From contig JANLIR010000002.1 in NCBI GenBank assembly GCA_024654025.1, positions 101,639 to 165,638 on the forward strand: 64,000 nucleotides of DNA, written 5' to 3'. Under the pieces are notes generated by a model. The model was not told the origin of the DNA and did no database searches. It saw only the letters and a list, made by a program, of their open reading frames with translations. Within the stretch, counting starts at the first letter, position 1. Each line of letters begins with the position of its first letter. The DNA is from Candidatus Wolfebacteria bacterium (GTDB lineage Bacteria; Patescibacteriota; Minisyncoccia; UBA6257; UBA9933). The translations under genes were made by a program, and so were the position numbers. Below, in pieces: positions 5,102-29,241 of the stretch.

Positions 5102-5114
5102 AATAATGATACAA

Positions 5115-5144
5115 ATATACTAATTTTACTAATGATACGAATGG
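5115..5144. repeat. MITE-like repeat, left arm (atatactaattttactaatgatacgaatgg); further copies at 28414-28443 and 15317-15341
   Basis: Near-identical 25-30-mers at three loci. Confidence 0.7.
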
Positions 5145-5578: not shown

Positions 5579-6955
5579 TTATTCAACGATTTTTCTAAGG
5601 TCAATAACGTCTTCTTCAACCGGAATGTCTTTTAATTGTAATTCATCCGGCGATTTAGCTGCCGTTTTTTGTTCGGGCTTTTGTTCGATTTTAAACATTT
5701 GTTTTCGGGCATCTTCAAAAGCTTTTTTCTCCGCCGCTGCTTTTATGCTTAATCCAAACTCCGGTCTTGGAGCTGAAAAACCAATTTTTGCGCCGTTATC
5801 GATCTTTATCGAACTTTGCTCAACTAAAGGAACTTGTATTCTTTTCTCTTCTGTAATTCTTTCCGTTTGGAAAGTTTCCATTTTTTTGTCATTCGTTTCA
5901 TTAGCATGCATTCGTCCTTCGGTCTGCTCAGGACGACCTCCTCGAGTCTGAGTCTCGGAGTCGAAGACCTGAGCTTGCCGAATGGGTCGTATATTGGTAT
6001 CGCGTTGTTCTTTTTTCTCTTCCATTTTTACCACTTTAGGCTCGAAACCAATATTAATTTCTTTGCTTTGAGAAAAAACCTGAGACTGAAAAGGCTTTTC
6101 TTTTCCAAAAGGAGACATCGGCGTATTTAAATCGCTATAATGAACTACTCTGACATTTGGTTTCTCCATTTGTATCTTGTTTTCCTTTTTCTTTTCCACG
6201 TCAGCGCCAAAACTTATTTTTGCCGCCAAATCTGATGATTCTTTTCTTGCCGCCGGCTCTTGTCCGGAAGAAAAAGTAAACACTTCAGCCAAAGATTTTT
6301 TATCCGCCGCAAGCGGTGTTAATTCTGTTTCCTTATGTAAAATCATCGGCGCTTCTTCTTCGCCAAGTGATTTTTCCAAAGTTATTCCGCTGACCTTCGG
6401 CTCGATTTTTCCGAAAACCGTCGGTTCTTCTTTTTTAATTTCCTGTCTAAATTCCGGTTTTTTCAACACTACCGCTTCTGGAAATATTTCTTTCGACTTT
6501 ATCTCAATTGTTTCGCTTGAAATTCCAAGAGCTGATTTTGTTTTTAAATCAACAACGTCTTCTTTTGTTGCGGGCTTTAATTCAATTTTAGGCGCTCCCC
6601 AAGACAATGCCGATTTTGAAACAACCAACGGACTGTAAATTTTTTTAATTTCGTCTTTTAACGATATGAAAATCTTTTTATCAATCTCTTGATAAATCGA
6701 ATCAGCTAATTGTTTATTGACCTCCAGATTTTCGGCGATTTCTTTGCTCATATCTTCAATCGCCACAAATCCGGACAAAACCAAAGCGGTTAACTGCTCA
6801 ATAGTTAAAGTTTTTTCATCATCAAAATAATGAGATTGGCAAATATGCCGGACAGTTCCCATTACGCTCTCTGAATTAAGAGCGTTTTTTAAAATACTCG
6901 GCAAGTCATAAACGCGTTTTTGAAATTGTTGTTCGGTGATTAAAAAGTAGTCCAT
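5579..6955 (-). CDS. Hypothetical protein: ~100-aa structured N-terminus, then a long Lys/Glu-rich disordered region containing an in-frame 95-bp repeat module
   Basis: Low-complexity K/E/P-rich sequence; segment IRPIRQAQVFDSETQTRGGRPEQTEGRM is encoded by the repeat at 5909-6002. Confidence 0.4.
   Translation of the reverse strand: MDYFLITEQQFQKRVYDLPSILKNALNSESVMGTVRHICQSHYFDDEKTLTIEQLTALVLSGFVAIEDMSKEIAENLEVNKQLADSIYQEIDKKIFISLKDEIKKIYSPLVVSKSALSWGAPKIELKPATKEDVVDLKTKSALGISSETIEIKSKEIFPEAVVLKKPEFRQEIKKEEPTVFGKIEPKVSGITLEKSLGEEEAPMILHKETELTPLAADKKSLAEVFTFSSGQEPAARKESSDLAAKISFGADVEKKKENKIQMEKPNVRVVHYSDLNTPMSPFGKEKPFQSQVFSQSKEINIGFEPKVVKMEEKKEQRDTNIRPIRQAQVFDSETQTRGGRPEQTEGRMHANETNDKKMETFQTERITEEKRIQVPLVEQSSIKIDNGAKIGFSAPRPEFGLSIKAAAEKKAFEDARKQMFKIEQKPEQKTAAKSPDELQLKDIPVEEDVIDLRKIVE
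5890..6002. repeat. 95-bp GC-rich repeat module (cattcgtccttcggtctgctcaggacgacc...gaatgggtcgtatattggtatcg) inside a CDS; inverted copy at 25498-25613; truncated copy at 28488-28553
   Basis: ~94/95 identity between the 5909-6002 copy and the reverse complement of 25498-25591. Confidence 0.8.
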
Positions 6956-22112: not shown

Positions 22113-23153
22113 TTAATATTTATTGTCAGATGTCGGTTGTCGATTATCGATAATTTTTAAATGCTTATAAGCATCCTTGCTGGCAACTCTGCCACCCGCG
22201 GTTTTATGAAGCAATCCTATTTTTATTAAAAAAGGCTCGTAAACGTCTTCAATAACTCCTTTTTCTTCGCCCAAAACCGCCGCTAAAGTAGCCAGTCCGG
22301 CTGGACCGCCTCTAAATTTTTTTATTATTATTTCTAAAAGCCGTCGGTCATAACTTTCCAAACCCAAATCATCGATTTCCAAAAATTTTAACGTCTCTTG
22401 AGCTAAGTCCTCGTCGATAATTTCCCTTTCGCTTACTTCCGCCAAGTCTCGTGCCCTTTTTAAAAGACGGTTGGCTATTCTTGGCGTAAAACGGGAGGCT
22501 CTGGAAAGTATTTCCCCTGCTCCTTTCGTAATTTTTACTCCTAAAATTTCCGCTGAACGAAAAATTATGTCTTCAATATCTTTATTTTCATAATAATCAA
22601 TTCTAAAGGTCGCGCCAAAACGCGAGCGTAGAGGAGACGACAAAAGATTGGGACGAGTTGTGGCCGCCACCAATGTAAAAGGCGGTAAATCCAAAGTCAA
22701 CGGCCGGGCAGCCGGGCCTTTCCCTATCATTACGTAAATCTGGCGGCTTTCGAGCGCCGGATACAAAACCTCTTCTATTGCCCGATTTAACCGATGAATT
22801 TCATCTATAAAAAGCACTTCGTTTTCCTCTATTGAAGAAAGAAGAGCTATCAAGTCGCCTACTCTTTCTAAAACAGCGCCGGAAGTAATTCTGATATCAG
22901 CTCCCATTTCTTTAGCGACCAAACACGCAAGCGTTGTTTTCCCCAATCCAGCCGGGCCGCAGAACAAAAGATGATCTACCGCTTCTTTTCTTTTTTTGGC
23001 GGCGGTTAAAATAATTTTCAAATTATTTTTTAGTTTTTCTTGGCCGATAAAATCTTTCCAATTACCCGGCCTTAAAACAAAATCAATTTGTTTTTCGTCG
23101 TTAGACTTTTTATTCACTAAAAACGTTTTTTCCTTGTTTTTTAAACTTTTCAT
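22113..23153 (-). CDS. ruvB: Holliday junction branch-migration helicase RuvB
   Basis: LRPGNWKDFIGQE..., Walker A GPAGLGKTTLA, sensor motifs. Confidence 0.85.
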   Translation of the reverse strand: MKSLKNKEKTFLVNKKSNDEKQIDFVLRPGNWKDFIGQEKLKNNLKIILTAAKKRKEAVDHLLFCGPAGLGKTTLACLVAKEMGADIRITSGAVLERVGDLIALLSSIEENEVLFIDEIHRLNRAIEEVLYPALESRQIYVMIGKGPAARPLTLDLPPFTLVAATTRPNLLSSPLRSRFGATFRIDYYENKDIEDIIFRSAEILGVKITKGAGEILSRASRFTPRIANRLLKRARDLAEVSEREIIDEDLAQETLKFLEIDDLGLESYDRRLLEIIIKKFRGGPAGLATLAAVLGEEKGVIEDVYEPFLIKIGLLHKTAGGRVASKDAYKHLKIIDNRQPTSDNKY

Positions 23154-23212
23154 TGTTTTTAGTATAGGCTTGACCCTGTAGTAATCCCGTTTTTAGCAAA
23201 ACTACTATGGGG

Positions 23213-23240
23213 TTGACATTTATTTCAAAATACGTATACT
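23213..23240 (+). promoter_or_regulatory. Sigma70-type promoter TTGACA-N16-TATACT driving the candidate sRNA
   Basis: ttgaca at 23213-23218, tatact at 23235-23240. Confidence 0.45.
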
Positions 23241-23246
23241 TATAGA

Positions 23247-23398
23247 AACTCTCTGGTATTGCGGGTAATGGGAGTATTTTTAGCTCGGAAGGATTGGTTC
23301 CGGCTGGTCCTCTCCTCGAAAATACTCTTAAACTTGCGCGGCGCGCAATTAAATCTCTCTCGCAGGGAGATACCCGCAATACCAGGGAGTTTTGTTAT
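23247..23398 (+). ncRNA. Candidate structured small RNA (~150 nt) of unknown class
   Basis: 15-bp perfect closing stem (23254-23268 ctggtattgcgggta pairs with 23371-23385 tacccgcaataccag), inner stems including the palindrome ttgcgcggcgcgcaa, then a U-tract; no coding potential; its own promoter. Confidence 0.3.
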
Positions 23399-25072
23399 TT
23401 ATTCCCATTCTATCGGTCCGGTAACCCCTTTTATTTCATCAAAAGTGGTTATGCCGCTTATCACTTTTAATATTCCGTCCTGCTGCATTGTTGTCATTCC
23501 TTTATCCACGGCAAATTTATTAATCGCTGTTTCTCCTGCTTGCTTAGATATTAATTCTTCAACTTCTGAACCGACTTCCAAAAGCTCGTAAATCGCCACT
23601 CTTCCTTTATAACCCATACCCAAACAATTATCACAGCCTTTTGGCTCAAAAATTTTAATATCTTTATACTCGCCTTTATCCACTCTTTTGGGCAGTTTAT
23701 CTAAAAACTTTTTAATATTATTTTCCAAGTCTTTTTCTCCACCGGCTGGCGAATTAGCCTCAACTTTACAATTCTGACAAAGCCTCCGCACCAAACGCTG
23801 GGCTATTATTAATTTCAAAGCCGGCCCGATACTTACATTTTTTACTCCCAAATCCAAAAGCCGGGGAATGGCTCCGGCTGACCGATTAGCATGAATGGTT
23901 GAAAAAACTAGGTGGCCGGTTAGCGACGCTTGAATGCCGATTTCCGCGGTTTCTTTATCTCTAATTTCTCCGACTAATATAACGTCCGGATCTTGCCGCA
24001 TTAACGACTTTAATCCGCTGGCAAAAGTGTATCCCGCTTCTTCGTCGACTTGCGTTTGTTCAATCCCGTCAAGATGATACTCAATCGGATCTTCAATTGT
24101 TATTATTTTTATTTCCGGAGATTTTTTTGTTTTTAAAAAGGTATATAGAGTAGTTGTTTTCCCTGATCCGGTCGGACCGGTATTTAATATAAGTCCGTCC
24201 GGCCTTTCCAAATTCTTTTGGATTATTTCCAGATCATCGTCTCTAAGGCCCAAATCTTTAAGAGAGAGGTTTATCGAATCCGGATCTAGTAGTCGCATCA
24301 CAATAACTTCTCCGAATTCCGACGGCGCCAAAGCGACTCTCACTTCAACGTCTTTGCCGGCTAATTGAATGGTAAACCGGCCGTCCTGCGGTTTATTAGA
24401 AATATTTAACTTTAGCCCGGAAAGAAGTTTTACTCTGGAAACCAAAAATTGGTAAAAATTAGATTTTAAAACAAAAACATCTCGGAGCAATCCATCAATT
24501 CTAAGCCGTAGTTTAATATTTTTCCCTGTTGGTTCAAAATGAACATCAGACGCTCTATTTAACAAAGCGCCGGCTAAAATAATTTCGAAAACCTGTGCGG
24601 CGTTAAAAGATTCAAATTCCTGTTTTTCTAAAAATTCTTTAAACCCTCCTAAAGTTGAAAGTTCTTTTTTTAACTTTGAAACATCTTCTACTTCAACCTT
24701 GCCGGTTATTTTTTCAGTTTCAACCGGCGCGTATTTATAAAAATTAAAAGCGTGCTCCAAACCGCTTAATGAAACAACAAACACCGAATATTCGTAGCCC
24801 TTCTTAGAAAAATCGTCAAGAACTTTTTTTACAGCCGGACTGGCCGGATCAACACAGACCACGGCAAGTTTGTTTCTCTTTTTTTCAATAACCGCCATCT
24901 TAGCTTCTCTAGATATTTTTTCATCCACTAAAGCCAAGGCCTCAACAACTACCGGCGTTTTAGATAAATCGACGTATTTTAAATTTAAATTTACAGCCTT
25001 TCTTTGAGCGTCTCTTTCTTCAGCCTCTCGCTTCATTTTCGCCAATTTATCGGTTAAGTTGCCAAAAATCAT
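23399..25072 (-). CDS. pilB: Type II/IV secretion / type IV pilus assembly ATPase (GspE/PilB family)
   Basis: N-terminal T2SE_N-like domain; Walker A GPTGSGKTTTL; Cys tetrad CQNC...CDNC. Confidence 0.8.
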   Translation of the reverse strand: MIFGNLTDKLAKMKREAEERDAQRKAVNLNLKYVDLSKTPVVVEALALVDEKISREAKMAVIEKKRNKLAVVCVDPASPAVKKVLDDFSKKGYEYSVFVVSLSGLEHAFNFYKYAPVETEKITGKVEVEDVSKLKKELSTLGGFKEFLEKQEFESFNAAQVFEIILAGALLNRASDVHFEPTGKNIKLRLRIDGLLRDVFVLKSNFYQFLVSRVKLLSGLKLNISNKPQDGRFTIQLAGKDVEVRVALAPSEFGEVIVMRLLDPDSINLSLKDLGLRDDDLEIIQKNLERPDGLILNTGPTGSGKTTTLYTFLKTKKSPEIKIITIEDPIEYHLDGIEQTQVDEEAGYTFASGLKSLMRQDPDVILVGEIRDKETAEIGIQASLTGHLVFSTIHANRSAGAIPRLLDLGVKNVSIGPALKLIIAQRLVRRLCQNCKVEANSPAGGEKDLENNIKKFLDKLPKRVDKGEYKDIKIFEPKGCDNCLGMGYKGRVAIYELLEVGSEVEELISKQAGETAINKFAVDKGMTTMQQDGILKVISGITTFDEIKGVTGPIEWE

Positions 25073-25452: not shown

Positions 25453-25497
25453 TACCCTTTGCTTTATTCAATTCGACCTTTCTTCGCTTACGCTACA

Positions 25498-25613
25498 CGA
25501 TGCCAATATACGACCCATTCGGCAAGCTCAGGTCTTCGACTCCGAGACTCAGACTCGAGGAGGTCGTCCTGAGCAGACCGAAGGACGAATGACATGCGAA
25601 TGATACGAATAAT
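25498..25613. repeat. Inverted copy of the 95-bp module plus arm fragment, in the KH-gene upstream region
   Basis: see 5890-6002. Confidence 0.8.
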
Positions 25614-28390: not shown

Positions 28391-28413
28391 ATCACTTCGC
28401 TAATATGATACCA

Positions 28414-28553
28414 ATATACTAATTTTACTAATGATACGAATGGATACTAATTTTATTATATTCGTATTTATTAGTATCATTCGAATGCATTCGTCCTTCG
28501 ACTTACTCAGGACGACCCTGAGTCGGTCGAATGGGTCGTAGATTTGTATCACG
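28414..28553. repeat. Compact complete element (left arm + right arm + truncated module) filling the smc-rnc spacer
   Basis: seen in sequence. Confidence 0.7.
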
Positions 28554-28554
28554 T

Positions 28555-29241
28555 TTATTGGCTAATTTCTTCCAGCGCTTTTTTCGCGGCTTCCACTTCC
28601 GCTTCTTGTTTGGAAAAACCCTTGCCCACGGCGATTAATTTTTTACCGAAATAAACTCCGGATTCAAAAACTTTCGCGTGATCGGGCCCTTCTTCCGATA
28701 AAATTTCATACGCCGGGGTAAGTTTCATTTTTTCCTGAGTTATTTCCTGTAAATAACTTTTAGGATCTTTGTAAAGTTCCTCGCTCATTACTTTGGAAAG
28801 TCTGGACAAAACAGTTTCACTGACGAAATTTTTGGTTATTTCATATCCGGAGTCTAAATATAAAGCCCCCAAAAGAGCTTCCAAAGCATTTGCTAAAATA
28901 ACCTCCCTTGCTCGTCCGGTATCTTTAGTCTCGCCTTTGGAAAGCAAAACTACTTCTTCCAAACCGATTATTTTAGCAACCTCCGCGAGCATTTGATAAT
29001 TAACCAAAGCTGCCCGAATACTTGTAAGTTCGCCTTCGGGCATATCTGAATATTTTAAAAATAAAATTTCGGTTACCGTTAATTCTAAAACCGCGTCTCC
29101 TAAAAATTCCAACCGCTCATTATGCGAAACGCCCCAATCGGGATTTTCATTTATGTAAGAACGGTGAGTCAAAGCCTCTTTTAAAAGGTTTTGATTTTTA
29201 AAGTTATACTTTATTTTTTTTTCAAACGAAGAAAGGTCCAC
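28555..29241 (-). CDS. rnc: Ribonuclease III
   Basis: ERLEFLGDAVLEL signature; C-terminal dsRBD. Confidence 0.85.
   Translation of the reverse strand: MDLSSFEKKIKYNFKNQNLLKEALTHRSYINENPDWGVSHNERLEFLGDAVLELTVTEILFLKYSDMPEGELTSIRAALVNYQMLAEVAKIIGLEEVVLLSKGETKDTGRAREVILANALEALLGALYLDSGYEITKNFVSETVLSRLSKVMSEELYKDPKSYLQEITQEKMKLTPAYEILSEEGPDHAKVFESGVYFGKKLIAVGKGFSKQEAEVEAAKKALEEISQ

What the first reader, a model, noticed from the sequence alone, without database searches (positions are those of the whole stretch)
23207..23400. Stand-alone structured sRNA candidate with consensus promoter, 15-bp closing stem and U-tract
A TTGACA-16-TATACT promoter lies between ruvB and pilB, both on the opposite strand. 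It is followed by ~150 nt with no coding capacity whose 5' and 3' ends form a perfect 15-bp stem (23254-23268 with 23371-23385). Internal features are a second stem (gagtatttt / aaaatactc), a largely unpaired central segment, the perfect palindrome ttgcgcggcgcgcaa, and a closing U-run. The closed-rod topology with a central unpaired region resembles 6S RNA; that is only a suggestion. It does not match SRP RNA domain IV, tmRNA or RNase P signatures.
Basis: seen in the sequence. Interest (0 to 1): 0.55.

Follow-up and report, generated by a model that had tools for sequence, protein, structure and literature searches.

The report
New conserved structured RNA in Paceibacteria
The flagged 150 bases are a real, independently transcribed, intricately folded small RNA gene that is conserved across a whole class of ultra-small (CPR/Patescibacteria) bacteria, matches no described RNA family, and is not a 6S RNA by structure; what it does is still unknown.

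Summary
Window 23245-23393 (+) sits between ruvB and pilB, which are both on the minus strand. It folds into a four-way junction (P1-P4; -77 kcal/mol, z = -10).

It is one member of a large RNA family. I found it in 17 Patescibacteria species genomes and in more than 110 metagenome loci, once per locus. About 93% of aligned pairs are canonical and 39 of 53 modelled pairs show compensatory changes. G-U pairs and 3-4-fold higher model scores identify the window's + strand as the functional one. A near-consensus sigma-70 promoter lies upstream in 98 of 116 members.

Nothing in Rfam 15 matches, and literature searches found no description.

It fails the structural tests for 6S RNA: there is no 5' central bubble, because P1 and P2 are 0-2 nt apart and P2 covaries. 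It also fails the tests for SRP RNA: the loop is UNCG, not GNRA, and there is no AGCA loop. It is single-copy, so it is not a mobile repeat.

Best reading: a stable, trans-acting, probably protein-binding RNA of a new family. Its function is inferred, not shown.

The parts
23213..23240 (+). Sigma-70-type promoter: -35 TTGACA (23213-23218), 16-nt spacer, -10 TATACT (23235-23240). The predicted transcription start is about 23245-23247, at the first base of P1.
   Evidence: 11 of 12 consensus positions. Conserved in close relatives. 98 of 116 non-redundant family members carry a promoter matching at least 10 of 12 positions on the same strand within 90 nt upstream, against 4 of 116 and 1 of 108 in two control regions.
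23245..23393 (+). The RNA gene itself, as matched by the covariance models. About 149 nt, or about 155 nt with the U-tail.
   Evidence: R1 scores 120.4 bits (E = 3e-27) and R2 103.7 bits. It is the only significant match in the 64-kb window (one other below-threshold match, 13.4 bits, E = 0.73). MFE z = -10.2.
23245..23266 (+). P1 5' strand.
   Evidence: In the family, 19-20 of the 22 P1 pairs show changes on both sides.
23269..23330 (+). P2, a long hairpin.
- P2a: 23269-23281 with 23318-23330.
- Asymmetric internal loop: 23282-23286 on the 5' side and 23316-23317 on the 3' side.
- P2b/P2c: 23287-23298 with 23303-23315, with C23312 bulged.
- UCCG (UNCG-type) tetraloop: 23299-23302.
   Evidence: Fold. 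P2a and P2c covary. The GGA/UCC pairs and the G-C pair under the loop do not vary in 70 distinct sequences. The first P2 pair is a conserved G-U (65 of 70).
23334..23348 (+). P3 hairpin, the G+C-rich palindrome ttgcgcggcgcgcaa.
   Evidence: A hairpin of 5-11 bp with unrelated sequence sits at this position in nearly all of the 75 family members folded. All 8 modelled pairs show changes on both sides.
23353..23371 (+). P4 hairpin (AUCUCUCU-CGC-AGGGAGAU), an optional arm.
   Evidence: Fold. It is present with a different sequence in most members and absent in about a quarter, which then have a three-way junction.
23372..23393 (+). P1 3' strand.
23390..23400 (+). U-run (UUUUGUUAUUU) directly after P1, the probable termination site. 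It overlaps the stop codon of the convergent pilB gene.
   Evidence: Sequence and ORF table. A U-run directly after P1 is seen in the window's clade and in L007, L008, L022 and L023. Other members have a separate hairpin or nothing obvious.
22113..23153 (-). ruvB, the divergent upstream neighbour. This is context, not part of the RNA.
   Evidence: Pfam RuvB_N, AAA_lid_4 and RuvB_C. ruvB is divergent within 500 nt in 64 of 69 family loci retrieved with an RNA-only pattern.
23399..25072 (-). pilB-type T2SSE ATPase gene, the convergent downstream neighbour. This is context.
   Evidence: Pfam T2SSE, E = 4e-119. It is convergent within 200 nt in 46 of 58 loci, within 1.2 kb in 8 more, and absent in 4.

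Best explanation
This is the gene for a stable, independently transcribed, trans-acting structured RNA of a previously undescribed family. The family is found in Paceibacteria/Minisyncoccia-type Patescibacteria.

Shown:
- A very strong sigma-70 promoter drives a transcript of about 150-165 nt. The promoter is TTGACA plus a -10 element, usually TG-extended.
- The 5' and 3' ends of the transcript pair in a 22-25-bp helix, P1.
- P1 is followed after 0-2 nt by a long hairpin, P2. P2 has fixed features: a G-U first pair, a 5'-heavy asymmetric loop beginning UAR, an invariant GGA/UCC mini-helix, a covarying helix and a UNCG cap.
- P2 is followed by one or two variable hairpins, P3 and the optional P4.
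- The fold, not the sequence, is what is conserved in P1, P2a, P2c, P3 and P4. The junction-proximal G-C pairs, the P2 loops and the P2-P3 linker are conserved in sequence.

Inferred:
- P1 and P2 stack into a rod with the small hairpins projecting from the junction.
- The long P1 shields both ends from exonucleases. In the window's clade it also serves as the terminator hairpin. In other clades the variable 5' leader (4-56 nt) and 3' trailer are trimmed back to P1.
- The invariant loop and junction nucleotides form the docking surface for a conserved cellular protein. The RNA would then work as the RNA subunit, scaffold or decoy of a ribonucleoprotein, in the manner of 6S, 4.5S or Y RNAs but without being one of them.
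- The partner and the cellular process are not known.
For: Real fold: z = -10.2.

Family and covariation:
- Model R1 finds one copy next to ruvB in all 17 Patescibacteria loci of the genome scan. These include L012, L014, L019 and L020 (plus L018, left out for a large insertion), which were not used to build the model. It finds none in the five non-Patescibacteria ruvB loci (L024, L026, L028-L030).
- An RNA-only DNA pattern returned at least 120 metagenome stretches, of which 110 score 68-136 bits.
- On 70 distinct sequences, 93.1% of cells are paired, against 78% in shuffles and at most 57% when partners are slid. 39 of 53 pairs change on both sides, and 0 of 500 shuffles reach the observed values (one search gives the same on 23 sequences).

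Strand: frequent G-U pairs, and sense scores of 83-150 bits against at most 47 bits antisense.

Own transcription unit: a promoter matching at least 10 of 12 positions in 98 of 116 members, an exact TTGACA in 92, and a TG extension in 86. Controls gave 4 of 116 and 1 of 108. No same-strand gene lies on either side.

Selection: the RNA is 92-97% identical where ruvB and pilB are 76-87% identical.

Independence from neighbours: at least 4 loci lack pilB and at least 4 lack ruvB but keep the RNA.

Single copy: one sense copy per locus in about 734 kb and none in viral contigs.
Against: There is no expression data, no mapped ends and no identified partner, so the trans-acting and protein-binding parts are inference from architecture.

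The near-constant position calls for an explanation, and a local (cis) role would provide one. The RNA lies antisense between pilB and ruvB. Its 3' end abuts the pilB stop codon (median 31 nt), and ruvB apparently has no promoter of its own.

The metagenome set was collected with a pattern that fixes the P2 tip. Conservation of GGUUYCGRC and of a few other positions is therefore inflated in that set. The ruvB-anchored set shows variants such as GGCCUCGGC and AGUUUAGGC.
Confidence: 0.5

Rival explanations
1. It is a cis-antisense element. The strongly transcribed RNA gene sits head-on inside a pilB-to-ruvB read-through transcript. It would control ruvB (and the pilB 3' end) by transcriptional collision, or by forming a perfect duplex of about 150 bp with the mRNA that RNase III then cuts.
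For: - The RNA 3' end lies a median of 31 nt from the end of pilB, and sometimes overlaps it.
- The ruvB start codon lies about 25-200 nt from the RNA 5' end, so the RNA promoter fills most of the spacer.
- Only 2 of 115 loci have a promoter matching at least 10 of 12 positions on the ruvB strand within the RNA gene, against 98 of 116 for the RNA.
- No terminator-like site for pilB was found.
Against: - An RNA that acted only by antisense pairing would not need four helices maintained by compensatory changes, strand-specific G-U pairs or invariant loop nucleotides.
- The RNA persists where pilB is absent (L033, L041, L074, L098) and where ruvB is replaced by other genes (L061, L085, L092, L077, L144).
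- A cis side-effect could coexist with a trans function.
Confidence: 0.15
2. It is the lineage's 6S-type RNA. A rod-shaped RNA would bind RNA polymerase holoenzyme as a promoter mimic, with P3 and P4 as hairpins in an enlarged 3' side of the bubble.
For: - The size (150-165 nt), the paired termini, the long closing helix with conserved G-C pairs at the junction and the strong housekeeping-type promoter all fit.
- 6S RNAs are poorly conserved in sequence, so a missing Rfam match is not decisive.
- No 6S RNA was found in the 64-kb window or in about 144 kb of related loci. That is only a small part of any genome.
Against: - No 6S-family match, even at E <= 10 in three family members.
- The 5' strand at the junction is 0-2 nt in 63 of 85 members, whereas 6S needs about 10 or more unpaired template nucleotides there.
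- P2a, which would have to be open, covaries as a helix.
- The only long single strand, the P2 5' loop, faces just 2-3 nt on the other side.
Confidence: 0.12
3. It is a catalytic or ligand-sensing RNA, with the junction and the asymmetric P2 loop forming an active site or binding pocket.
For: It is a multi-helix junction whose invariant nucleotides concentrate in loops and at the junction, and it has a conserved G-U pair at the junction. That pattern is typical of ribozymes and aptamers.
Against: - No ribozyme or riboswitch family matches.
- There is no downstream gene to regulate.
- P1 is far longer (22-25 bp) than a switching helix would be.
- No pseudoknot or loop-loop complementarity rises above the shuffled background.
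Confidence: 0.08
4. It is a highly divergent SRP (4.5S-like) RNA.
For: It is a stable hairpin-rod RNA with paired ends and a 5'-heavy asymmetric loop below a short G-C helix, which loosely resembles helix 8. No canonical SRP RNA was seen in the sequence available.
Against: - No SRP model matches at E <= 10.
- The tip is a UNCG tetraloop, not GNRA.
- The universally conserved AGCA and GG loop nucleotides are absent.
- SRP RNA cores are among the most conserved RNA elements known (established knowledge).
Confidence: 0.03
5. It is not a functional RNA: only a bidirectional terminator, or a miniature inverted-repeat mobile element lodged between two genes.
For: It has long terminal inverted repeats and internal palindromes, it sits at the convergent end of pilB, and the opposite strand also folds well (z = -8.3).
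Against: - It is single-copy in the window and in every locus.
- Its position is fixed across genomes whose RuvB proteins are only 50-63% identical.
- It has a conserved promoter.
- Covariation is strand-specific.
- A true MITE-like repeat in the same window looks quite different.
Confidence: 0.02

Closest known systems
6S RNA (ssrS; Rfam RF00013 and related lineage-specific 6S families)
   Same: A stand-alone, abundant-type sRNA gene of about 150-200 nt. Its 5' and 3' ends pair in a long closing helix, the overall shape is rod-like, G-C pairs flank the central irregularity, and the ends are probably matured from a longer precursor.
   Different: - There is no two-sided central bubble: the 5' strand at the junction is 0-2 nt.
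- The centre is a three- or four-way junction.
- There is no Rfam match.
- No evidence exists for polymerase binding or product RNA.
Bacterial SRP RNA (4.5S; Rfam RF00169 and RF01854)
   Same: A housekeeping-style stable RNA. It is a hairpin rod with paired termini, and conserved internal loops near the tip of the long hairpin probably act as protein sites.
   Different: - The tetraloop is UNCG rather than GNRA.
- The conserved symmetric and asymmetric loop sequences are lacking.
- Extra hairpins P3 and P4 are present.
- No model matches.
Bacterial Y RNAs (YrlA-type, partners of the Ro/Rsr protein)
   Same: A long stem formed by the two ends, with a multi-branched module at the other end. These are modular protein-binding RNAs of about 110-150 nt.
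   Different: - No Y_RNA or YrlA match.
- No tRNA-like T and D arms (ARAGORN negative).
- No rsr gene among the annotated neighbours. Genome-wide absence was not tested.
Orphan structured bacterial ncRNAs known only from comparative genomics (for example raiA, OLE and LOOT motif RNAs)
   Same: Defined by covariation, lineage-restricted, complex folds, unknown biochemical function. LOOT RNA occurs in one related locus (L098).
   Different: No sequence or structure match to any of them in Rfam 15. This RNA has its own distinct architecture and gene context.

Membership tests
6S RNA | Matches a 6S covariance model | tested here: not met
   No 6S-type hit at gathering score, or at E <= 10, in the window copy or in two divergent members.
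6S RNA | A large central bubble, single-stranded on both strands, between the closing and terminal helices | tested here: not met
   The P1-P2 linker is 0-2 nt in 63 of 85 members. The adjacent helix P2a is supported by compensatory changes. The centre is a three- or four-way junction.
6S RNA | Size of about 150-200 nt, with the 5' and 3' ends in a long closing stem | tested here: met
   Length 129-176 nt, with a P1 of 22-25 bp.
6S RNA | Binds sigma-70 holoenzyme and templates product RNAs | not testable with these tools
   This needs biochemistry.
Bacterial SRP RNA | Matches the SRP covariance models | tested here: not met
   No hit at E <= 10.
Bacterial SRP RNA | Helix 8 with a GNRA tetraloop and the conserved AGCA and GG internal-loop nucleotides | tested here: not met
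   The tip is UUCG, UCCG or CUCG. The internal loops read UAR...GGA and UCCUYK. A regex for the helix-8 core found nothing relevant.
tRNA / tmRNA | Cloverleaf or tRNA-like domain recognised by ARAGORN or the Rfam tRNA and tmRNA models | tested here: not met
   ARAGORN finds only two ordinary tRNAs elsewhere in the window. Rfam finds none here.
Miniature inverted-repeat element / REP-type repeat | Multiple dispersed copies per genome at variable insertion sites | tested here: not met
   One copy in 64 kb. One sense copy per locus in about 734 kb. The gene context is the same in most loci.
Riboswitch / cis-regulatory leader | Lies in the 5' UTR of a downstream gene on the same strand | tested here: not met
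   The next gene downstream is convergent (pilB) and the gene upstream is divergent (ruvB).
Stand-alone bacterial sRNA gene (generic) | Its own promoter, a defined 3' end, no coding potential, and conservation as RNA | tested here: met
   - Promoter.
- U-run after P1 in the window's clade.
- Substitutions are compensatory and indels are not in multiples of three.
- The 3' end in other clades is undefined.
Any Rfam 15 family | Reaches the family's gathering score | tested here: not met
   4227 models were searched against the window, against six relatives' loci and against two short stretches. Only chance-level matches were found.

The most novel reading that the evidence does not exclude
This is a previously unrecognised housekeeping RNA class of Paceibacteria/Minisyncoccia. 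It would be the RNA subunit of an unknown ribonucleoprotein, retained in some of the smallest bacterial genomes, with no counterpart among the classic stable RNAs (rRNA, tRNA, tmRNA, RNase P, SRP, 6S).
Probability: 0.45. Interest if true: 0.75.

Novelty: new variant of a known kind. Interest (0 to 1): 0.62.

Why it matters
Patescibacteria have genomes of roughly 1 Mb or less, have shed many 'essential' functions, and are almost entirely uncultured. A 150-165-nt RNA that is single-copy, driven by a near-perfect promoter and more conserved than its neighbouring protein genes is therefore very likely doing something important. It is also maintained by compensatory evolution across a whole class.

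It gives RNA biologists a well-defined new fold: a three- or four-way junction, an invariant GGA/UCC helix and a conserved junction G-U pair. It gives CPR biologists a new handle, testable in the few existing co-cultures, on regulation or on a ribonucleoprotein specific to these organisms. The covariance model built here can also be used to annotate this gene, which current pipelines leave blank.

Tried and rejected
- **Rfam.** I searched at gathering and at permissive thresholds on the window, six relatives' loci and two short stretches. Only chance hits appeared (microRNA, CRISPR-repeat and snoRNA models, and a PreQ1-like match with E = 0.62 over the ruvB start).
- **tRNA/tmRNA.** ARAGORN found nothing here.
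- **Mobile-element idea.** I searched for the 15-mer with 3 mismatches and ran a repeat scan of the window. Only the two arms themselves were found.
- **Viral origin.** The family pattern gave 0 hits in IMG/VR.
- **SRP.** A regex for the helix-8 core over about 1 Mb of fetched loci gave only coding-region chance hits. This is uninformative about whether SRP RNA exists elsewhere in these genomes.
- **Pseudoknot.** Complementarity between the P2 5' loop and the P3 loop, or the P3-P1 linker, was no better than shuffled (3.2 vs 3.0 and 4.2 vs 3.9 nt).
- **ruvB promoter inside the RNA gene.** Absent in 113 of 115 loci.
- **Literature.** Eight full-text searches combining Patescibacteria, CPR or Parcubacteria with 6S, SRP, ncRNA, RNA motif or structured RNA returned nothing about this RNA. 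Four papers were opened and were irrelevant.
- **Holliday-junction mimic.** I considered a four-way-junction RNA next to ruvB acting as a mimic and rejected it. The fourth arm is missing in about a quarter of members, and ruvB is not always adjacent.
- **MAFFT alignment of P3 and P4.** It was not structural. I fixed it by realigning to the covariance models, so the pair counts on A4 and A5 lean somewhat towards the model. The RNAalifold result on the plain MAFFT alignment already gave 32 of 44 covarying pairs.
Full report
**What is in the window**

The 245-nt spacer between ruvB (22113-23153, minus strand) and a pilB-type T2SSE ATPase gene (23399-25072, minus strand) carries, on the plus strand, the following features:
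- TTGACA at 23213-23218;
- a 16-nt spacer;
- TATACT at 23235-23240;
- about 150 nt that end in a U-run (23390-23400) overlapping the pilB stop codon.

Its 5' arm is 23253-23267, one base earlier than reported, and its 3' arm is 23371-23385. With A-U and G-U pairs it grows to 22 bp.

Folding 23245-23400 gives a four-way junction at -77.1 kcal/mol. Shuffles give -41.1 +/- 3.5, so z = -10.2. The helices are:
- P1: 23245-23266 with 23372-23393.
- P2: 23269-23330, a long hairpin. It has a 13-bp base, a 5 x 2 asymmetric loop, a 12-bp upper part with one bulged C, and a UCCG tetraloop.
- P3: 23334-23348, the G+C palindrome.
- P4: 23353-23371.

So the 'largely unpaired central segment' is predicted to be paired, and P4 was overlooked. 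The opposite strand also folds well (z = -8.3), so the fold alone does not tell the strand.

**It is a family, and the fold is under selection**

RuvB places the organism in Patescibacteria/Paceibacteria. The best hits are 62-97% identical and are named Paceibacterota, Parcubacteria, Wolfebacteria and similar.

Contigs carrying RuvB proteins 79-91% identical have the same order: S16, KH, pilB, gap, ruvB, yidC, R3H. In them the RNA block is almost invariant while the flanks on both sides cannot be aligned. The RNA is 92-97% identical at the nucleotide level, against 76-87% for ruvB and pilB.

Relatives with about 65% RuvB identity keep a pilB-gap-ruvB arrangement. The gap holds an RNA with the same architecture but almost entirely different helix sequences.

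A ruvB-anchored scan of species-representative genomes gave 21 loci. A covariance model built from 19 sequences (R1) found exactly one copy upstream of ruvB, on the opposite strand, in all 17 Patescibacteria loci. These included four loci not used for training and not found by my loop regex, plus L018, which I had left out of the model for a large insertion. It found none in the Bacillota, Vampirovibrionales, Ruminococcus, Anaerolineaceae and Pelagibacteraceae loci.

Of the 120, 110 score 68-136 bits with R1 and seven more score 36-46 bits.

On the plain MAFFT alignment, RNAalifold already reports 32 of 44 pairs with compensatory changes.

| Measure (model-based alignments) | 23 sequences | 70 distinct sequences |
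|---|---|---|
| Cells forming standard pairs | 91.2% | 93.1% |
| Same, shuffled | 72% | 78% |
| Same, partners slid | at most 55% | at most 57% |
| Pairs changing on both sides | 39 of 53 | 39 of 53 |
| Shuffles reaching the observed values | 0 of 500 | 0 of 500 |

By helix, P1 has 19-20 of 22 covarying pairs and P3 has 8 of 8. P2a and P2c covary. The GGA/UCC pairs and the G-C pair beneath the tetraloop never change.

The metagenome set was ascertained with the P2-tip pattern, so conservation there is overstated. The ruvB-anchored set shows tips such as GGCCUCGGC and AGUUUAGGC, which keep the pairing.

**Strand and transcription**

Many positions are predominantly G-U on the window's plus strand. 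Examples are the first pair of P2 (65 of 70) and several P1 and P2c pairs. On the other strand these would be A-C mismatches. Sense hits score 83-150 bits and the reverse strand at most 47 bits.

A sigma-70-type promoter matching at least 10 of 12 positions lies within 90 nt upstream on the RNA strand in 98 of 116 non-redundant members. The -35 is exactly TTGACA in 92, and a TG extension precedes the -10 in 86. The same scan gives 4 of 116 on the opposite strand and 1 of 108 in a control region.

In the window's clade the predicted start coincides with the first base of P1, and a U-run follows P1. In other clades the distance from the -10 element to P1 varies from 4 to 56 nt, and the 3' side has either a separate hairpin or nothing obvious. 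This suggests end trimming back to P1, which is an inference.

**Architecture of the family**

- **P1** is 22-25 bp, with a conserved inner part (UGNGGGY paired with RCCCNCA).
- **The P1-P2 linker** is 0-2 nt in 63 of 85 members.
- **P2** starts with a G-U pair. It has a roughly 10-bp A+U-rich base, then a 5' loop of 4-13 nt beginning UAR opposite 2-3 nt. Next come the invariant GGA/UCC, a small 1 x 2 loop, a 5-bp covarying helix, a G-G or G-U mismatch, two pairs and a UNCG-type tetraloop.
- **The P2-P3 linker** reads AUUCUAR-like.
- **P3** is present in nearly all members folded, at 5-11 bp.
- **P4** is missing in about a quarter of members, so the core is a three-way junction.
- **Variants** exist with an extra hairpin between P1 and P2, or with large insertions.

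I found no pseudoknot signal.

**Context**

Among 106 non-redundant loci retrieved by the RNA-only pattern:
- ruvB is divergent within 500 nt in 64 of the 69 with enough flank;
- pilB is convergent within 200 nt in 46 of 58 (median 31 nt), within 1.2 kb in 8 more, and absent in 4.

Where ruvB is missing, the upstream gene is something else: a ComEA-like LTD/HHH protein with YebC, or hypothetical proteins. The RNA is therefore an independent gene that neither neighbour is needed for.

The arrangement still has consequences. The ruvB start codon is typically about 65 nt from the RNA's 5' end. There is essentially never a good promoter on the ruvB strand inside the RNA gene (2 of 115), and no pilB terminator was detected. 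So ruvB is probably read through from pilB across the antisense of a strongly transcribed gene. A cis effect (collision or duplex formation) is thus possible, but it cannot explain the selection on the fold.

**What it is not**

- **No Rfam family.** Rfam 15 (4227 families) gives nothing at gathering score in the window, and only chance-level matches at E <= 10 in the window copy and in two divergent members.
- **Not 6S.** No model matches. The centre is a junction rather than a two-sided bubble, the 5' strand there is 0-2 nt, and the adjoining helix covaries.
- **Not SRP RNA.** No model matches, the loop is UNCG rather than GNRA, and the conserved helix-8 loop nucleotides are absent.
- **Not tRNA or tmRNA**.
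- **Not a mobile repeat.** It is single-copy. A genuine MITE-like repeat elsewhere in the window provides the contrast.
- **Not a leader or 3'UTR.** No same-strand gene lies on either side.

Eight literature searches found no description of it.

**How it most likely works**

Shown: it is an independently promoted, single-copy, strand-specific RNA whose three- or four-way fold and a small set of loop and junction nucleotides are under purifying selection across a bacterial class.

Inferred:
- P1 and P2 stack into a long rod.
- P1 protects the ends, and in this clade it also terminates transcription.
- The invariant GGA/UCC helix, the UAR loop, the junction G-U pair and the G-C-rich end of P1 form a recognition surface for a conserved protein. 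The RNA would then act in trans as the RNA part of a ribonucleoprotein.

I put about 0.5 on this general mechanism. The rivals are:
- a primarily cis-antisense role, about 0.15;
- a structurally aberrant 6S analogue, about 0.12;
- a ribozyme or ligand sensor, about 0.08;
- a divergent SRP RNA, about 0.03;
- no function, about 0.02.

**Novelty and score**

As a family it is new relative to Rfam 15 and to the searchable literature. As a kind of element (a stable structured sRNA gene with paired termini) it is familiar, so I class it 'new variant of a known kind'.

Interest is 0.62. New bacterial RNA motifs are found regularly. This one is large, complex, very well supported, has its own strong promoter, and sits in organisms with minimal genomes and few known regulators.

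Noticed in passing
window 5880-6020 (+), 25480-25610 (inverted), 28450-28570 (+); also 5106-5144 / 28405-28443: A MITE-like intergenic repeat of about 100-130 nt occurs at least three times. Two copies are 98% identical over 97 nt in opposite orientation, and one has a 30-nt internal deletion. It contains nested inverted segments (CATTCG...CGAATG, CTCAGGACGACC...). Its fold is not exceptional (z = -1.4) and there is no Rfam match.
   Followed up: partly
window ~46000-48600: Cumulative GC skew reaches its minimum here and changes sign, next to tRNA-Asp (48541-48616). This may be a replication origin or terminus.
   Followed up: no
L098 2926-3048 (+): A LOOT RNA (Rfam RF03000, 71.8 bits against a gathering score of 46.4) lies about 7 kb from the family member in this related metagenome contig. 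It is another orphan RNA in the same lineage. In this locus pilB is absent and a tRNA follows the RNA.
   Followed up: no
L036 3042-3204, L052 1687-1846, L093 9927-10086, L125 6293-6455; L018 1197-1447; L014 1226-1384: These are divergent sub-types of the family. Four loci have an extra hairpin inserted between P1 and P2 and score only 36-56 bits. L018 carries an insertion of about 100 nt, and L014 a 25-nt insertion at the P1-P2 linker.
   Followed up: partly
window 23154-23244 and the equivalent spacers in L007-L027: ruvB seems to lack a promoter of its own. Its start codon is about 25-200 nt from the RNA's 5' end, and the spacer is largely occupied by the RNA's divergent promoter. Only 2 of 115 loci have a good promoter on the ruvB strand within the RNA gene. 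ruvB is therefore probably co-transcribed with pilB, through the antisense of the RNA gene.
   Followed up: partly
window 23128-23168 (-): A weak PreQ1-riboswitch-like match (16.8 bits against a gathering score of 39, E = 0.62) overlaps the ruvB start codon. It is A-rich sequence and almost certainly a chance match.
   Followed up: no
L108 (ERZ1292625, Hainich H41 groundwater contig) 2362-2510: This contig encodes RuvB and PilB proteins 100% and 99% identical to the window's, and an identical RNA. The window therefore probably derives from the same or a near-identical groundwater Paceibacteria population.
   Followed up: no
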